DNA from: Treponema sp.
GTDB taxonomy: Bacteria > Spirochaetota > Spirochaetia > Treponematales > Treponemataceae
Length of the DNA: 49,826 nt
Direction of reading: 5' to 3'
NCBI GenBank assembly: GCA_017450845.1
Contig: JAFSSU010000303.1
Location: 1-49,826 of the forward strand
Shown: piece after piece, positions 40,190-46,565 of the stretch
How the letters are laid out: each line of letters begins with the position of its first letter
Position numbering within the stretch: position 1 is the stretch's first letter
Program-made: the position numbers and the translations under genes
The notes under the pieces: generated by a model
What the model saw: the letters and a program-made list of their open reading frames with translations, nothing else
The model's database searches: none
Told to the model about the DNA's origin: nothing

Positions 40190-40996
40190 TCAGCTCAACT
40201 GCTTGAGGTTATATTCCAGGAGGCTCAGGAACTGGTCCTTGAGGATGGGGTGCGTTATGCTCCGGTTGAATTCCTCCTGGCTCAGTTCCTCGGCAGCGAC
40301 AAGGAAATCCGCGACGGCCCTGTCAGGAAGGGGAAGCTTGTAACCGGTGAGCTTGTTCTCCAGTTCCCTGGAACGGAACACCATTTCGCCCGTGAAAGCT
40401 ATCTTCATGTTGACGATGCGGTCATTCTCCGTGTCCACCAGAAAGACGAAGCTCGCGCCCAGCGGGGAGAGCTTGCTTTCCGGACCGATTTTCTTGAACA
40501 CGGAGACTTCCCAGTCGTTGACGGGAACCCGTATCTTGGTGATTACGAAAGACTTGGGAATCCCTGTGAACTCCCTGAATTTTATGCGCTTGGTGGAAGA
40601 CTGGCTTTTTACCTCCAGCTCCGCGTCCAGTGCGAGGAGCGGGGCATAGAGGGTTCCTTTCTGACCCTCCCTGCAAATATTCCCTGCCAGAGTCGCGATG
40701 TTCCTTATGGGTCCCGTCGCCGTTGCCTCGACGGCATCGTAGAGGACGGTGGGAATGTTCGTCCTGCCCATCGAGGCTATCTGGGCAAGCGTCACCGCAG
40801 GCCCGAAGTCCACGTACCGCTCCTTCTTGTCTATGGTCTGGAGCTCCGGGATTCCGTATGTGGACACGGCCTTGCAGTAGGGGTCTATGAATTCCGTGCA
40901 GCTGCCGACAATCCTCAGGTCGCTGACGGTCTTTATGTGATAAAAGATGTCGGCGAGATTCTTTGCGAGGAGGAACGTTCCCTTATTTTCTTCCAT
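40190..40996 (-). CDS. Xanthine dehydrogenase/CO dehydrogenase-family FAD-binding subunit (divergent)
   Basis: FGPAVTL, IRNIATLAGN, LLALDA; the first FAD motif reads VGSCTEF instead of AGGTDL. Confidence 0.85.
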   Translation of the reverse strand: MEENKGTFLLAKNLADIFYHIKTVSDLRIVGSCTEFIDPYCKAVSTYGIPELQTIDKKERYVDFGPAVTLAQIASMGRTNIPTVLYDAVEATATGPIRNIATLAGNICREGQKGTLYAPLLALDAELEVKSQSSTKRIKFREFTGIPKSFVITKIRVPVNDWEVSVFKKIGPESKLSPLGASFVFLVDTENDRIVNMKIAFTGEMVFRSRELENKLTGYKLPLPDRAVADFLVAAEELSQEEFNRSITHPILKDQFLSLLEYNLKQLS

Positions 40997-41471
40997 TTTT
41001 CTTTCCCTCCCTCTTGTGCTTGGTCGCGATCGCGAACAGGATGCCGTTTATGTAGCTGTTGCGGTCGGTGCAGCAGAAATCCAGGTCCTTTATCATCTCT
41101 ACGATTCTCTGTATGTCCGGCCTGCTGGAGGGGATGATCAGCTGGTATGCGGTCAGGATTTTGCCCGCATCGCAGTAGCCGCACAAGTTCACTCCGGCCT
41201 GCTTGAATCCCGCCATGATGTCGTTGTACTCGGGAAAACTCTTGAAGTGCTCCAGCGTGACTATGCTGGAATCCCTGATCGTCGCGACGGGGATTATGCA
41301 GGAGGGGACGGGCTTGCCGTCGATCAGGACCATGCAGTTGCCGCAGTGCCCTTCCATGCAGCCGCATTTGACCTTGTAGAGCTTCTTTTCCCTGAGCACC
41401 TGGAGCAGGGTCTCTTCCGGATCCGCGTCAAGAATCTGTGTCTCACCGTTGAGCGTCAGCGGGATTTGCAT
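40983..41471 (-). CDS. Xanthine dehydrogenase-family [2Fe-2S] subunit (CoxS-like)
   Basis: LNG, TLL.VLRE, GCMEGHCGNC...PSC, CGYC, FCCT. Confidence 0.92.
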   Translation of the reverse strand: MQIPLTLNGETQILDADPEETLLQVLREKKLYKVKCGCMEGHCGNCMVLIDGKPVPSCIIPVATIRDSSIVTLEHFKSFPEYNDIMAGFKQAGVNLCGYCDAGKILTAYQLIIPSSRPDIQRIVEMIKDLDFCCTDRNSYINGILFAIATKHKREGKKNGRK

Positions 41472-43623
41472 TCTCTGCCTCCAGTTTTTTTATCTGCTGG
41501 TATATGCTGTCATACTTCAACGGAAGAACCCCGAGCTGCGTCCCGAGGGCCTGTGACAGGGCCTGCAGGTATGCCGACGGGATGACCTGGTACACCAGCT
41601 CTCCTATTTGCTCCGGGTTCCCGTCCCCGTTCATGAACGAGATGTTTATCTCGTCACATTCCGTTTTCTTGCCCTCGGTCAGGGAGCTGAGGACTTTCTG
41701 AATTCCCAGCCGTATGGTTGCCTCCGCCGCCTGGGAATTCAGGATTTGCCCCCCGCTGATGCAGATGTGGATTTTTCGTATCCTGTCGGAGAATGTCTGT
41801 GGCTCCAGCTCCACTTCCACCGCCGCGGCCGCGAATGAGCAGGAATGGAAAGGCTCTCCCCGGAACTTCTCGCTGTCCCAGGCTTTTTTCTGCACGCTCC
41901 CGAGCTTATGCGTCACCGAGAGCGGAAGCTCTGCCTTGTCCCGCTTTTTCTTGATGCTCTCGCAGCATTTTTTGAGCAGCACGGTCATTATGCTGATGTT
42001 TGCGTACGCGCTCTCGGGTAGGAAGGGTTCGCTGCCGCTCTCAAAGTTGGAGTTTATCTTTATGCGCGATGCCTTTATGTCGAGGATGTCGGACGCAAGC
42101 CGGGTCCAGATGTCCTCTATGGAATCCGAAAGAGGGGGGCTGTGTATGACAAGGCTGCCGTCTTTTTCCAATGTCACCTCCAGCTCCTGGTCTGCCCCGT
42201 ATATCTTTGAGCCGTAATAAAACGAACCTTCATATCCTGCCGCGAAGCCTATACCCCGTATCGGAGGGACGAAGGGGGAGGGCGAGAACTTCTTGCTGGA
42301 GTCTGATTTCCTTGCGAGGCTCTCCCGGTTGTAGAAGATGTACTTGTTGTTGAAGTCGCTGGACTCGAACAGCTTGTCCATACATTCCTCTGCCTTTGGA
42401 AGCTGGAATCTGAATGGCATGCTGGCAGCCTGCCCCTCATCATCATGGCTGTTGAGGTTCAGCTTCCTTATCTCGTTGGGAAAGACGAGCGAGATGTCAG
42501 GCTTTGTGTTGAGCCGGCTTAGCAGGGCTGACATCGCGCTCTCCATGGCGAAGAACGAGGCGGAGTCGATCAGCTGCATGTCCATTGAGAGGGGAGGGGT
42601 ATTGGAAGGCGTTGCCTTCACCCGGATGCTGACGTTGTCCGCCTTGTAGCAGGATGTGGCCGCTATGGCGATGCGGTCAATTATTTCCCCGATAAAAACA
42701 TTCGTGCTGCCGGAGTCCATGGATGCCTCCAGCTTAAGGACCCTGAGCTTCCCGTTTTTGTCGGAGCCCAGCTCGGTGTGGAAGCGGATAGGCTTCATGC
42801 AGTCTATGTATTCTTCCTGCTCCTGCCTGCTGTAAGTGAGCTTTACCGGGACTTTGAGTTTGTAGGAGGCGACCGCGGCCTGGCAGGCGATAATCGAGTT
42901 GTACCAGATGCTGTTCGTTGAGCGGCCCCAGTCCTTTGTCCTGGTTACGTTGATTTTTCCCGGGGACAGGTTCAGCACCGAGGACAAATCCTCCCGCAGG
43001 TTGCTTATCCATTGCGAGGGTGAGCACACGCTCAGGCTTTCTCCGCTGAAGTTGCAGAGCACGCCGCATGTCTCGCGGTAGTTCCTGGGGCAGAGGGAGT
43101 AGGTCCAGTCATTCTGGACACGGACTTCTGCTTCCTCAAGCTCAGCGTCTATGCCTTTGCATCTGCCGCTTTCCATCGTAAAGCAGTCACCGTACTCAAT
43201 CAGCCGCTCCCATTCCCCGTTTCCGAATATTTCTTCACCGCCGGTCTCGCCGTCGTCTGTCTCTATGTAGCTTTCGATCGGGATGTCGTCATAGCTTATG
43301 CGCAGGCTGGCCATCGCCCTGTTGACGCTCTTCATGTCGGGCCCGACCAGAAGTCCGATCGGCTCACCGACGTATGAGACGTTGCCGTCGCAGAAGACCT
43401 TGATTTTCCCCTCCGCGCTGTCCAGCAGGTTGCTGCCCGGAACGTCCCGCGCCGTGATGAGCACGCAGCCTTCCACAACCTCGTCCTGGCTTATGGAGGT
43501 TATCATTCCCCTGTCCACGGGGCTCCGTACGGTGACGGCGTAGAACATGCCCTTCAGGGAGAGGTCGCTGCAAAAATCGTTCCTGAAGGTGATTGCCGCT
43601 GCCCCCTCCTTGTCCTTAGGCAT
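41443..43623 (-). CDS. Xanthine dehydrogenase-family large subunit with degenerate Moco-binding motifs
   Basis: Scaffold motifs retained: VRSP..RG.I, ITARDVPG.N, V.YVGEPI, PVKL...R.E, FAME, RGIG.A, EVEL, IGE. Gly-rich Moco loops are absent. Confidence 0.85.
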   Translation of the reverse strand: MPKDKEGAAAITFRNDFCSDLSLKGMFYAVTVRSPVDRGMITSISQDEVVEGCVLITARDVPGSNLLDSAEGKIKVFCDGNVSYVGEPIGLLVGPDMKSVNRAMASLRISYDDIPIESYIETDDGETGGEEIFGNGEWERLIEYGDCFTMESGRCKGIDAELEEAEVRVQNDWTYSLCPRNYRETCGVLCNFSGESLSVCSPSQWISNLREDLSSVLNLSPGKINVTRTKDWGRSTNSIWYNSIIACQAAVASYKLKVPVKLTYSRQEQEEYIDCMKPIRFHTELGSDKNGKLRVLKLEASMDSGSTNVFIGEIIDRIAIAATSCYKADNVSIRVKATPSNTPPLSMDMQLIDSASFFAMESAMSALLSRLNTKPDISLVFPNEIRKLNLNSHDDEGQAASMPFRFQLPKAEECMDKLFESSDFNNKYIFYNRESLARKSDSSKKFSPSPFVPPIRGIGFAAGYEGSFYYGSKIYGADQELEVTLEKDGSLVIHSPPLSDSIEDIWTRLASDILDIKASRIKINSNFESGSEPFLPESAYANISIMTVLLKKCCESIKKKRDKAELPLSVTHKLGSVQKKAWDSEKFRGEPFHSCSFAAAAVEVELEPQTFSDRIRKIHICISGGQILNSQAAEATIRLGIQKVLSSLTEGKKTECDEINISFMNGDGNPEQIGELVYQVIPSAYLQALSQALGTQLGVLPLKYDSIYQQIKKLEAENANPADAQR

Positions 43624-44803
43624 GGTAGCTCTCCCCTATCTGCTTTATCGTGCCAATCACGAACGAGATGTCCTCTTCCGTCATGTCGGGGAAGAGGGGA
43701 ATAGATATGGTCTCGTTGTAATGCTGCTCAGCGTTGGGGAAGTGCGCCGCATCGAATCCCTCGTAGAGCTTGTTCCAGTAGCTGAAGTGGAAAACCGGGA
43801 TGAAGTGGACGGATATGCCCACTCCCCGTTTCTGAAGCTCCTGCGCGAATGTGTTCCTGTCGCAGCGGAGCTTGGTCAGGTCCAGGCGCATCAGGAAGAG
43901 GTGCCATGAGTTGCCCTCGCCGTCCGGCGGCAGCTTGATGAAATCAAGCTTTCCCAGCTCGGCCTTATACTTCTCGACGTGCTCCTTGCGCTTCCTGTCA
44001 AACTCGTCCGCCTTCGCCAGCTGCACCCTTCCTATGGCCGCAAGGATGTCGGGGAGATTGTACTTGTAGCCGGGGGCGATGATGTCGTATTCCCACGAGG
44101 CTTTGGGCGAGGTGTAGCGGTCCCAGGTCGTCCTGTCCATCCCGTGCATCCGCATGACGGTCATGCGCCTGGCAAGCGCGTCGTCGTTCGTGGTGACCAT
44201 GCCGCCCTCGCCGGTCGTAATCGTCTTGGTCACATAGAAGGAGAACACGCCCGCGTCGCCTATGACTCCCGCGTAGCCCATGCTGGTCTTGCTGGGGAAG
44301 GAGTGGGCCGCGTCCTCTATGACCCTGACCCCGTATTTCCTGGCGAGCCTCATTATCGCGTCCATGTCGCAGACGTTCCCCGCTATGTGCACGGGGACAA
44401 TGGCGACGACATTCTTGCCGCGCGGGCTTTCCAGTATCTCCTCTATCTTTGCAGGATCAATCGAATAGCTGTCTTTCTCTATGTCGGCGAAGTACACGTC
44501 GGCACCGAGCAGGCGGGCACAGGCCGCCGTGGAGACGAAGGTGTAGGGGGTCGTTATGACGGCCTTGCCGGGGCCGACCCCGCATGCTTCCATCGCGAGC
44601 ACCATGCCGCTCGTGTTGCTGTTGACGGCAAGCGCGTGCTTTGCCTCTACTTTCGCGGCGAATTCTTTTTCGAACGAGAGTGCTTCCTTTCCTGTCGTGA
44701 GCCAGCCGCTCCTCAGGACCCTGAGCGCGGCCTCCTCTTCTTCTGTTCCTATCGAGGCCCTGAAGAATGGGACTTTCAGAGCGTTTCCTGTGTTGTCTGC
44801 CAT
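43616..44803 (-). CDS. DegT/DnrJ/EryC1/StrS-family PLP-dependent sugar aminotransferase
   Basis: SGWLTTG, TFVST, PVHIAG, IEDAAH, FSFYVTKTITTGEGG (catalytic Lys present), GYKYN, SIPLFP. Confidence 0.95.
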   Translation of the reverse strand: MADNTGNALKVPFFRASIGTEEEEAALRVLRSGWLTTGKEALSFEKEFAAKVEAKHALAVNSNTSGMVLAMEACGVGPGKAVITTPYTFVSTAACARLLGADVYFADIEKDSYSIDPAKIEEILESPRGKNVVAIVPVHIAGNVCDMDAIMRLARKYGVRVIEDAAHSFPSKTSMGYAGVIGDAGVFSFYVTKTITTGEGGMVTTNDDALARRMTVMRMHGMDRTTWDRYTSPKASWEYDIIAPGYKYNLPDILAAIGRVQLAKADEFDRKRKEHVEKYKAELGKLDFIKLPPDGEGNSWHLFLMRLDLTKLRCDRNTFAQELQKRGVGISVHFIPVFHFSYWNKLYEGFDAAHFPNAEQHYNETISIPLFPDMTEEDISFVIGTIKQIGESYHA

Positions 44804-46332
44804 TATAAAACCACCTTGACTGAATTTGACATGTTGACCACCTTGCCGTCCTGCTCCTGAGCCTTGTAAAAATCATCGAGCGTGGGGACGGCGGAGCGCA
44901 GGAGCCTCAATAGCTCGTCCTTGTTCCGGTACAGGTTTTCCTTGCCGGGGGTATACGTGCATATCGGGGCAAGGCTTTCCACGAGCCGGGAAAGGCCGAA
45001 GGTCCGGGGCGGTATGTTCGTCAGCCTGAGGATTTTCTGGTAGTCCGTCGGCTGGGGCTTCTCCTCGTCAAGCCAGAGGGGCTCCACGAGCCGCTCCCCG
45101 GGCCGGGTCCCGATGAACTTGATGTCTATGTCCTCGTATGGCTCGAAGCCCGCGAAGCGGATTATCTGCTCGGCGAGGTCGAGTATCTTTATGGGCTCTC
45201 CCATGTCCAGCAGGTATGACGCTCCGTTCACGCCGACCCCGCCCGTCTGAAGTACGAGCGAGCATGCCTCGGGAATAGTCATGAAGAAGCGCTCCATGTC
45301 GCGGTCAGTGACGGTGACGGGGCCTCCGTTCTGGATTTGCTCCATGAAAATCGGCAGGATGGACCCGCGCGAGCCCAGGACGTTGCCGAAGCGGACGAAC
45401 ATGAACGACTGGCCGTCTTTTACCCTGCCGGCCGCATCGTTGACGAGCTTCTCGCAGAGCATCTTGCTGACCCCGTAGACGCTCACGGGGTCCACCGCCT
45501 TGTCCGTGGAGATGAGGACGAAGCGGCTTGTCCCGGCCTCAAGGGCGGCATCCAGCAGGTTCTTTGTTCCGAAGACGTTGTTCTCGATCGAGGCGACCGG
45601 GTTCTCCTCCATCATCGGGACATGCTTGTAGGCCGCGCAGTGGAAGATGACGTCGGCATGGGTCTTGGAGACGATGTACTTCATGTATTCCCGGTCCTTC
45701 ATGTCGCCGATTATCGGGACGACCGAGGCCTTCTCGCCCACGCCCTCGTTCTGCAGGATGTGCAGCTCGCGGTAGATGCCGACTATCGAATTCTCCCCGT
45801 GGCCGAAGAGGTAAATGCGCTCGCAGCCGCCGGACAGGAGCTGGCGAGACAGCTCCGAGCCGATTGACCCGCCCGCCCCGGTGATGAGGACCCGCTTGCC
45901 CTTCAGGTATGCGAGGCTCTCGTGCAGGGGGATGATAATCGGCGTGCGGCCCAGGATGTCCAGGGGGTTGATGTCCCGGGCCTGGATCAGGTGGGCCTTG
46001 CCGTCTATGACCTGGCTTATGGACGGCAGGATTTTGATGCGGAAAAAGCCGCCTTCCTTGAGCGAGTTGTAGATGGACCGGATCCGCTCGCTGCTCGCGC
46101 TCGGAATGGCGATGATCGCCTTGTCTATCGCCGTCACCCTGAGCAGGGGGGCCACCTCGTCAATCGGCCCCAGAACCGGGATGCCGTCTATCTTTGTGCC
46201 GATGAGCTTCTTGTCGTCGTCCAGGAAGGCCGCGACATGGCCGAAAATTCCCTTGCGTATCAGGTCCTTGGCAATCATCTGCCCGGCAAAGCCTGCCCCG
46301 ATGATGTACAGGTGTGTCTCTACTTTGTCCAT
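44803..46332 (-). CDS. CapD/PglF-like nucleotide-sugar 4,6-dehydratase lacking N-terminal TM helices
   Basis: IIGAG, FLDDD, ITGAGGSIGSEL, HCAAYKHVP, ISTDKAV, YGVSK, VRFGNVLGSRGS, RPGE. Confidence 0.95.
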   Translation of the reverse strand: MDKVETHLYIIGAGFAGQMIAKDLIRKGIFGHVAAFLDDDKKLIGTKIDGIPVLGPIDEVAPLLRVTAIDKAIIAIPSASSERIRSIYNSLKEGGFFRIKILPSISQVIDGKAHLIQARDINPLDILGRTPIIIPLHESLAYLKGKRVLITGAGGSIGSELSRQLLSGGCERIYLFGHGENSIVGIYRELHILQNEGVGEKASVVPIIGDMKDREYMKYIVSKTHADVIFHCAAYKHVPMMEENPVASIENNVFGTKNLLDAALEAGTSRFVLISTDKAVDPVSVYGVSKMLCEKLVNDAAGRVKDGQSFMFVRFGNVLGSRGSILPIFMEQIQNGGPVTVTDRDMERFFMTIPEACSLVLQTGGVGVNGASYLLDMGEPIKILDLAEQIIRFAGFEPYEDIDIKFIGTRPGERLVEPLWLDEEKPQPTDYQKILRLTNIPPRTFGLSRLVESLAPICTYTPGKENLYRNKDELLRLLRSAVPTLDDFYKAQEQDGKVVNMSNSVKVVL

Positions 46333-46361: not shown

Positions 46362-46390
46362 ATAGTAGCACAGATTACGGGCGGTTGCAA
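46362..46390 (-). promoter_or_regulatory. Promoter of the capD-degT-xdh-like operon
   Basis: Minus strand TTGCAA (46390-46385), 17 bp, TACTAT (46367-46362) with an extended -10 TGn. Confidence 0.65.
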
Positions 46391-46437: not shown

Positions 46438-46544
46438 TTTTCACCCGGGCGGGTGCGACTTTTCACCCGGGCGGGTGAGTCCTTTCACCCGGGCGGGTGA
46501 GTCCTTTCACCCGGACAGGTGAGGCTTTTCACCCGGACGGGTGA
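46438..46544. repeat. Tandem array of five 22-bp units, each with a 16-bp palindrome TCACCCG-GR-CGGGTGA
   Basis: Palindromes start at 46441, 46463, 46485, 46507 and 46529; 6-bp linkers GACTTT, GTCCTT, GTCCTT, GGCTTT. Confidence 0.97.
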
Positions 46545-46565
46545 GGAGCGTGCGCAAGACCTCCC

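What the first reader, a model, noticed from the sequence alone, without database searches (positions are those of the whole stretch)
40190..46332. Candidate new system: amino-sugar biosynthesis genes coupled to a molybdenum-less xanthine-dehydrogenase-like complex
Seen: five genes behind one promoter, every junction overlapping (1 bp at 44803; 43616-43623; 41443-41471; 40983-40996). Order: 4,6-dehydratase, DegT aminotransferase, XDH-like large, [2Fe-2S] and FAD subunits. No XdhC, MocA, Moco-synthesis or purine genes are in the window, and no acetyl- or glycosyltransferase. All frames are intact, yet Moco contacts are eroded in both the large and Fe-S subunits. Established: dehydratase plus aminotransferase yield a UDP-4-amino-4,6-dideoxy-HexNAc (bacillosamine/pseudaminic-type precursor). 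From recall (verify): the same order exists in T. pallidum (about TP0077-TP0081), a reduced genome not known to make Moco. Inference: an XDH scaffold repurposed as a Moco-independent flavin/Fe-S redox module, sensor or nucleotide-sugar-binding partner for glycan or glycolipid synthesis.
Basis: partly seen in the sequence, partly recalled or inferred. Interest (0 to 1): 0.85.

Follow-up and report, generated by a model that had tools for sequence, protein, structure and literature searches.

The report
Molybdenum-free xanthine-dehydrogenase relic of spirochaetes
These genes encode a three-part protein that keeps the shape of xanthine dehydrogenase but has lost the sequence motifs that hold its molybdenum cofactor; it is conserved across treponemes, Borrelia and most of their class, so it likely has a new, non-enzymatic redox-sensing or scaffolding job rather than the purine-oxidising role assumed in print.

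Summary
Confirmed and wider than reported. The five overlapping genes are real. The XDH-like trio is one clade (SH-aLRT 100, quick tree) with relatives across class Spirochaetia, including Borrelia, and is under purifying selection. The Moco-binding GGxFGxK loop is absent in 141 of 141 large subunits (canonical 26 of 26). The Moco-contacting Gln of the small subunit is absent in 145 of 145. Erosion is the same in 22 genomes with moaC and 31 without, so this is not decay after pathway loss. The order (nusG paralogue)-dehydratase-aminotransferase-L-S-M is found in 104 of 143 loci. It is not obligatory: Borrelia and others keep the trio without the dehydratase. Borrelia has also lost the FAD motifs and one Fe-S site; only one four-cysteine site is nearly universal (143 of 145). 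Best reading: a Moco-free pseudoenzyme heterotrimer, likely a redox-responsive scaffold for envelope upkeep, beside a probable flagellin-sugar precursor pathway but not part of it. The Borrelia counterpart (bb0554-0556) is published as a putative xanthine dehydrogenase needed in ticks and mice, without biochemical proof; these data argue against that label. Function is untested.

The parts
44803..46332 (-). Soluble PglF/CapD-like UDP-HexNAc 4,6-dehydratase (509 aa, STDK and YxxxK motifs, no transmembrane segment)
   Evidence: Pfam PF02719 E 8e-108; best PDB match C. jejuni WlaL/PglF E 1e-67; below PseB cut-off; max 19-residue hydropathy 1.29
43616..44803 (-). DegT-family sugar aminotransferase with the PLP lysine (K193)
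   Evidence: PF01041 E 1e-109; PseC model 363.9 bits, cut-off 423.5; best PDB match ArnB; Lys in 115 of 122 homologues, His in none matched
41443..43623 (-). XDH-fold large subunit without the Moco-binding motifs (726 aa)
   Evidence: AF2 pLDDT 89.6; XDH fold, Z 38, rmsd 3.3-3.7 A over about 640 residues; motif table
40983..41471 (-). Small subunit: eight Cys (C38, 43, 46, 58; C97, 100, 133, 134), Moco-contacting Gln replaced by L96, CxC contracted to CC
   Evidence: predicted to bind the large subunit
40190..40996 (-). Medium subunit of FAD-binding fold with partly eroded FAD motifs (GSCT for AGGT; RNIATLAGN kept; Asp lost)
   Evidence: PF00941 E 1e-21
46362..46390 (-). Possible sigma-70 promoter, TTGCAA-17-TACTAT with TG (8 of 12; untested)
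   Evidence: read from the sequence; below the threshold of the scan

Best explanation
The three downstream genes encode a xanthine-dehydrogenase-fold complex that has lost its molybdenum-cofactor motifs and likely works as a non-catalytic, redox-responsive scaffold for cell-envelope upkeep, inherited in one operon with a sugar-precursor pair that it likely does not serve directly. Shown: fold, motif loss, one clade including Borrelia, purifying selection, near-universal retention of the C-terminal four-Cys site, optional FAD and N-terminal Fe-S sites, and retention without the sugar genes. Predicted: L and S still assemble. Inferred: no Mo is bound (about 0.9); the kept four-Cys site ([2Fe-2S] or Zn) is the structural or sensing centre, with FAD and the second cluster an accessory NAD(P)H-linked input where kept; clade-specific motifs on L (W205, DFxR 423-426, RFxxPLPI 561-568) form a new partner-binding surface; the dehydratase and aminotransferase feed a nonulosonate (Pse/Leg) flagellin glycan.
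For: GGxFGxK 0 of 141 vs 26 of 26 canonical; Arg of FRGFG 4 of 141 vs 26 of 26; Gln of GQG 0 of 141 vs 23 of 26. Small-subunit Gln 0 of 145 vs 26 of 26; C-terminal four Cys in 143 of 145. Same erosion in 22 moaC-positive and 31 moaC-negative genomes. Fer2_2 match in 121 of 121 family genomes, MoaC in 11 of 121. One clade, SH-aLRT 100. dN/dS 0.02-0.14 for window pairs. L+S score 0.83, best control 0.01; mark reached by 116 of 157 solved and 2 of 215 mismatched pairs; contact agreement at least 85%, partner pLDDT at least 87; a textbook pair, so it may pass from memory. Borrelia mutants: sensitive to H2O2 and TBHP, no growth defect, fail in ticks and mice (PMC9993122); grouped with a proposed membrane-damage response (PMC5333916 passage). 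T. pallidum trio detected at about 30-50-fold lower LFQ than the dehydratase in one sample (PMC11077495 supplement).
Against: No partner, ligand or metal is shown. The window's large subunit keeps the equivalents of Gln767 (Q204), Arg880 (R317) and the catalytic Glu1261 (E675); these are kept in 91, 97 and 49 of 141 (bovine numbering recalled). Most lineages keep eight Cys and most FAD motifs, which suits a working electron carrier. Allopurinol phenocopied the Borrelia deletion and urate rescued it. Two genomes lost even the C-terminal Cys site (L140, L217). The Borrelia branch is very long and compositionally odd; FastTree support for the clade was 0.79.
Confidence: 0.45

Rival explanations
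1. A Moco-free flavin/[2Fe-2S] electron carrier: M oxidises NAD(P)H, S relays electrons, and L docks an acceptor such as a peroxide-repair or envelope enzyme. Borrelia-type forms are late degenerates.
For: Eight Cys and the G/T, R, T, G FAD-motif residues are kept in most of 145 small and 144 medium subunits; Mo-free XDH/CODH retain diaphorase activity (recalled); ROS phenotype in Borrelia.
Against: The ROS phenotype comes from the lineage that lacks the FAD motifs and N-terminal cluster. G017 lacks all four N-terminal Cys and G278 both sites. The FAD-binding Asp is in 0 of 91 family members.
Confidence: 0.27
2. The trio is a redox or nucleotide-sugar-binding partner of the dehydratase and aminotransferase and modifies or regulates the amino sugar.
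For: Dehydratase-aminotransferase directly upstream in 67 of 90 family and 37 of 53 class loci, with a NusG paralogue ahead in 56; overlapping frames.
Against: Trio kept without the dehydratase orthologue in 10 of 33 genomes queried. Dehydratase displaced in 16 family loci, in some by more than 100 kb. dS to L002 is 0.17-0.26 for the sugar genes but 1.3-1.6 for the trio. The aminotransferase has Lys, not the E1 His. Unequal abundance in T. pallidum.
Confidence: 0.12
3. A purine-binding sensor: the old substrate pocket binds xanthine, hypoxanthine or urate without turnover.
For: Arg880 equivalent in 97 of 141; Trp or Phe at the Phe914 position in 46 of 89 family rows; allopurinol epistasis in Borrelia.
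Against: Glu802 equivalent 0 of 141; pocket residues not recognisable in Borrelia; urate rescued a strain lacking the complex.
Confidence: 0.09
4. A true xanthine dehydrogenase using scavenged Moco, as proposed for bb0554-0556.
For: Urate rescue and allopurinol phenocopy; Q204, R317 and E675 kept in the window; three complete family genomes carry canonical XDH genes and XdhC with no MoaC match, so lack of synthesis alone does not exclude use.
Against: Moco motifs lost clade-wide; no XdhC in genomes that have only the trio; urate production was not detected or tested biochemically; Borrelia genomes have no MoaC (0 of 9).
Confidence: 0.04

Closest known systems
Xanthine oxidase family molybdenum hydroxylases (R. 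capsulatus XDH 1jro, nicotinate dehydrogenase 3hrd, CO dehydrogenase 1n61)
   Same: Three-subunit L/S/M layout, whole-length fold, predicted L-S interface, most Fe-S Cys. The nearest canonical relatives are intact XDH-type trios of other spirochaetes.
   Different: Moco-binding motifs and the small-subunit Gln are gone; no dependence on moaC or xdhC; single copy, vertically kept, in an envelope-type operon.
Borrelia burgdorferi BB0554-0556 ('xdhACB', PMC9993122)
   Same: Same L-S-M order and sizes; Borrelia trios fall in the clade, share the ligA neighbour, fold as XDH-L (model built with clade alignment); the 155-aa B. burgdorferi protein matches the small-subunit profile at 97.6%.
   Different: Borrelia has no dehydratase or aminotransferase next to it and has also lost the FAD motifs and N-terminal Cys; the paper treats it as a working Mo enzyme. 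Locus identity rests on size, order and species, not on a locus tag returned by a call.
'Orphan' XO-family proteins in genomes lacking Moco synthesis (PMC6147048)
   Same: XO homologues without a Moco pathway; a Mo-independent form was suggested there.
   Different: That study found no sequence features and its main text does not mention spirochaetes (supplements not read). Here the loss is explicit, clade-wide, and present even where Moco is made.
PglF/PglE and PseB/PseC amino-sugar pairs
   Same: 4,6-dehydratase plus PLP 4-aminotransferase.
   Different: PglF-like size without membrane segments, Tyr in the YxxxK position, aminotransferase nearer PseC/ArnB; both below the PseB and PseC cut-offs, so the product's stereochemistry is open.
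E1/E3 (AscC/AscD) 3,6-dideoxysugar system (recalled)
   Same: DegT-family protein beside a flavin/[2Fe-2S] module.
   Different: Lys instead of His at the PLP site; the redox module is XDH-fold and separable.

Membership tests
XO-family molybdenum hydroxylase | Large, small and medium subunits with XDH folds | tested here: met
XO-family molybdenum hydroxylase | Moco-binding motifs GGxFGxK, FRGFG, GQG, ASR | tested here: not met
   Window WGRSTNSI, MQLI, SDS, YA; 0 of 141 GGxFGxK vs 26 of 26
XO-family molybdenum hydroxylase | Moco-contacting Gln before CGxC and CRCTGY in the small subunit | tested here: not met
   L96; 0 of 145 vs 26 of 26
XO-family molybdenum hydroxylase | Catalytic Glu (GE motif) | tested here: inconclusive
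   E675 present in the window; 49 of 141 vs 26 of 26
XO-family molybdenum hydroxylase | Two four-Cys [2Fe-2S] sites | tested here: inconclusive
   Eight Cys in the window but CC for CxC; N-terminal pattern missed in 17 of 145 (some only by spacing), C-terminal in 2 of 145
XO-family molybdenum hydroxylase | FAD-binding motifs | tested here: inconclusive
   T34, R98, T102, G105, N106 kept; S32, A104, T115 replace Gly, Gly, Asp
XO-family molybdenum hydroxylase | Moco synthesis and XdhC in the genome | tested here: not met
   None found in G000, 89.9% complete; MoaC in 11 of 121 family genomes
XO-family molybdenum hydroxylase | Bound Mo and hydroxylase activity | not testable with these tools
   needs ICP-MS and assays
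E1/E3 deoxygenase | His replacing the PLP Lys | tested here: not met
   K193; Lys in 115 of 122, 7 unmatched
PseB/PseC | NCBIfam equivalog cut-offs | tested here: not met
   172.8 vs 407.75 and 363.9 vs 423.5 bits
PglF/PglE | N-terminal membrane segments of PglF | tested here: not met
   max hydropathy 1.29 over 19 residues
PglF/PglE or PseB/PseC | Product stereochemistry | not testable with these tools
   needs NMR or LC-MS of products
NusG-paralogue (LoaP-type) operon | Paralogue directly upstream | tested here: inconclusive
   Absent from the window, present on contig C339; directly upstream in 60 of 143 related loci; LoaP identity not tested

The most novel reading that the evidence does not exclude
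An ancestral spirochaete turned a molybdenum hydroxylase into a cofactor-free signalling or assembly machine while Moco was still being made. It is a core complex of most of the class, kept down to T. pallidum and Borrelia, that senses oxidation through its one kept four-Cys site and controls envelope repair, and it explains why bb0554-0556 is needed in ticks and mice.
Probability: 0.3. Interest if true: 0.9.

Novelty: new variant of a known kind. Interest (0 to 1): 0.74.

Why it matters
No Moco-independent XO-family complex turned up in my ten paper searches, and a 2018 survey could only suggest one. This one is a single-copy gene set kept by genomes as small as 1.0-1.1 Mb, so it does something they need. 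Its Borrelia counterpart is required in ticks and mice and has been renamed a xanthine dehydrogenase without biochemical proof; the motif loss makes that claim directly testable and probably wrong. Database labels ('molybdopterin-binding subunit', energy metabolism) for TP0079-0081 and relatives would need revising. The operon also points to candidate first steps for treponemal flagellin glycan precursors.

Tried and rejected
Paper searches for TP0077-81 in main texts, quinoline 2-oxidoreductase, Treponema plus Moco, and orphan molybdoenzymes in spirochaetes gave nothing relevant. The T. denticola flagellin-glycan paper is not held, so its content is recalled only. Earlier scan findings: none. 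MoeA_N is a poor marker here: 0 of 30 family genomes, including five with MoaC. The family large-subunit profile missed Borrelia; the medium-subunit profile found it. Yeast two-hybrid rows showed no pair among TP0077-81, but the expected TP0079-TP0080 pair is missing too and I saw 9 of 46 TP0080 rows, so this is uninformative. RNA-library contigs from three runs of one study cover parts of all five genes, and some bridge junctions; contigs cannot show transcription, strand or level. One SBP_bac_11 match in G000 was not identified as ModA. The ESM Atlas returned only spirochaete clusters. Neutral decay was rejected. E1/E3 membership was rejected. No complex prediction was run for sugar enzymes with the trio.
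Full report
Observation. The five minus-strand ORFs and their 1, 8, 29 and 14 bp overlaps are as described. Pfam gives a CapD/PglF-type dehydratase, a DegT aminotransferase, and XDH-family large, [2Fe-2S] and FAD subunits; all three score far below every NCBIfam XDH cut-off. Close relatives are named Treponema or Spirochaetaceae metagenome bins. The assembly (89.9% complete) has no MoaC, MoeA_N, XdhC or MoCF_biosynth match and one MoCoBD_1 gene. A promoter is not shown; an 8/12 site lies at 46390-46362.

Distribution. A Fer2_2 match was found in 121 of 121 family genomes, MoaC in 11 of the same 121. A medium-subunit profile matched 148 of 161 class genomes; this count includes canonical enzymes, and 13 genomes had no match. 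MoaC matched 66 of those 161. I read 90 family loci (85 of the 120 sampled genomes plus 5 public contigs) and 53 loci of other families (40 picked for long contigs and spread, 13). All carry the eroded form. The 14 loci I read from outside the class were canonical. In trees of the three subunits the eroded trios, Borrelia included, form one clade: SH-aLRT 100 in a quick IQ-TREE run of 32 rows with long branches and uneven composition, 0.79 in FastTree with 66 rows. The sister group is intact spirochaete XDH-type trios.

Moco site. Against 26 canonical large subunits from the same genome set: GGxFGxK 0 of 141 vs 26 of 26; Arg of FRGFG 4 of 141 vs 26; Gln of GQG 0 vs 23; Glu802 position 0 vs 18; Arg of ASR 0 of 89 in the family and 34 of 52 elsewhere vs 24 (bovine numbering recalled). 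The small-subunit Gln that contacts the pterin is in 0 of 145 vs 26 of 26. Erosion is the same in 22 genomes with moaC and 31 without, so it likely preceded loss of the pathway. Against this reading, the window keeps Q204, R317 and E675 (Gln767, Arg880, Glu1261 positions; 91, 97 and 49 of 141). Three complete genomes hold canonical XDH genes and XdhC with no MoaC match, so missing synthesis alone proves little; the motif loss carries the argument.

Fold and selection. The model of L (pLDDT 89.6) matches XDH over about 640 residues (Z 38). L and S are predicted to bind (0.83, best control 0.01; the mark was reached by 116 of 157 solved and 2 of 215 mismatched pairs; agreement at least 85%, partner pLDDT at least 87). 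This is a textbook pair and may pass from memory. The interface includes W232 and D500, which replace Moco-lining Gly and Gln. Pairwise dN/dS is 0.02-0.14 for the trio against four relatives (dS above 1 for three of them) and 0.08-0.32 among Borrelia.

Other cofactors. The C-terminal four-Cys site is kept in 143 of 145 small subunits; the N-terminal pattern is missed in 17 of 145, some only by spacing. G017 (1.14 Mb; its protein lengths equal those listed for TP0077, 79, 80 and 81) has none of the N-terminal Cys, and G278 has lost both sites. FAD motifs are mostly kept, but the Asp is in 0 of 91 family members. Family f5, Borrelia by the names, has L-S-M of 621/153/287 aa with no Pfam match, no FAD motifs and only CxxC...CxC; the B. 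burgdorferi 155-aa protein is the same. Its L model also matches XDH-L, though built with a clade alignment. A complete FAD-to-Fe-S chain is therefore not the shared function. Clade-specific conserved residues on L are W205, D423/F424/R426, R561-I568 and Q691.

Linkage. Dehydratase-aminotransferase lies directly upstream in 67 of 90 family loci (68 with L007, whose L is split) and 37 of 53 others; a NusG paralogue heads the operon in 56 of these and directly precedes L in 4 more; ligA lies divergently upstream in many. Loci were 11-15 kb, so distant neighbours can be missed; L146 starts at a contig end, and in G105 and G116 L lies on another contig. LoaP-type paralogues are reported near polysaccharide operons and in Spirochaetota (PMC12691694, passages). 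The link is not obligatory. Ten of 33 trio-bearing genomes, chosen for lacking the neighbour, have no dehydratase orthologue (4 Borrelia, 2 of f6, 4 family members with only 34-41% matches). Against L002 the sugar genes have dS 0.17-0.26 and the trio 1.3-1.6, a sign of separate exchange. The aminotransferase keeps the PLP Lys, so it is no E1-type deoxygenase. A strong NeuB/PseI match is in 41 of 48 genomes; the 7 without one all lack the sugar pair beside the trio, though six others lack the pair there and keep NeuB. A phosphoglycosyl transferase was not found in 17 of 48, G017 included. I infer that the pair feeds a nonulosonate flagellin glycan; Maf proteins in T. denticola are mentioned in a preprint passage, and the T. 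denticola glycan itself is recalled.

Literature. T. pallidum TP0077-81 are annotated in this order (PMC2386257 supplements), modelled as XDH subunits with function taken as annotated (PMC13749626 supplements, 12 of 15 files searched; nothing in the main text) and detected by MS, the trio in 2 of 3 samples at about 30-50-fold lower intensity than the dehydratase in sample 2 (PMC11077495 supplements, 12 of 14 files). PMC9993122 (parts 1-4 of 5 read) shows bb0554-0556 is an operon needed for H2O2 resistance and for ticks and mice, with no growth or motility defect; urate rescued and allopurinol phenocopied the deletion, but urate could not be measured, and Moco synthesis is not discussed in what I read. 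PMC5333916 (passages) groups the genes with a proposed membrane-damage response. PMC6147048 (passages) notes orphan XO proteins without sequence features; its supplements, unread, may list spirochaetes. Ten searches found no statement that this clade lacks Moco motifs; subscription journals are mostly not covered.

Mechanism and verdict. Best reading (0.45): a Moco-free XDH-fold heterotrimer acting as a redox-responsive scaffold for envelope upkeep, built on the one kept four-Cys site. Rivals: NAD(P)H-linked electron carrier (0.27), partner of the sugar enzymes (0.12), purine sensor (0.09), true XDH (0.04). That it binds no Mo is about 0.9. It fails membership of the molybdenum hydroxylases on the defining motifs while keeping their architecture: a new variant of a known kind, interest 0.74.

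Noticed in passing
window 46439-46548: Five tandem 22-bp units, each an imperfect palindrome TCACCCG-nn-CGGGTGA, between the dehydratase start and the divergent SH3-domain gene, where relatives carry a NusG paralogue. A strict pattern found 4 units here and single units on 5 other contigs; REP-like.
   Followed up: partly
L168:11120-11641 (-), L058:8228-9082 (-); G000:C339:2316-2813: A NusG paralogue heads the operon in 60 of 143 related loci; in this genome it lies on another contig.
   Followed up: partly
window 40983-41471, residues 132-134: The last CxC of the small subunit is contracted to CC in this lineage (Cys at the middle position in 27 of 92 family rows).
   Followed up: no
L079, L080 (G067, G013) and G026: Complete genomes with canonical XDH-type genes and XdhC but no MoaC or MoeA match; the large subunit in L080 is split in two ORFs. 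Moco scavenging or a recent import in decay.
   Followed up: partly
G037, G054, G062, G086, G102: MoaC, XdhC and canonical XDH genes but no MoeA_N match: possibly a different Mo insertase.
   Followed up: no
window 43616-46332 vs L002: Sugar genes far less diverged (dS 0.17-0.26) than the trio (1.3-1.6): recent exchange of the dehydratase-aminotransferase pair.
   Followed up: partly
G002:C1:1104889, G208:C21:16243, G009:C16:10680, G075:C1:2402495: A NeuB/PseI-type gene lies 5-7 kb downstream of the operon in these genomes.
   Followed up: no
PMC2386257 supplement 1: TP0079 and TP0080 both hit ThiI (TP0559) in two-hybrid screens; the prey is sticky (26 baits).
   Followed up: no
L007:5743-8026: The large subunit is split into two ORFs in this bin; frameshift or assembly error not resolved.
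   Followed up: no
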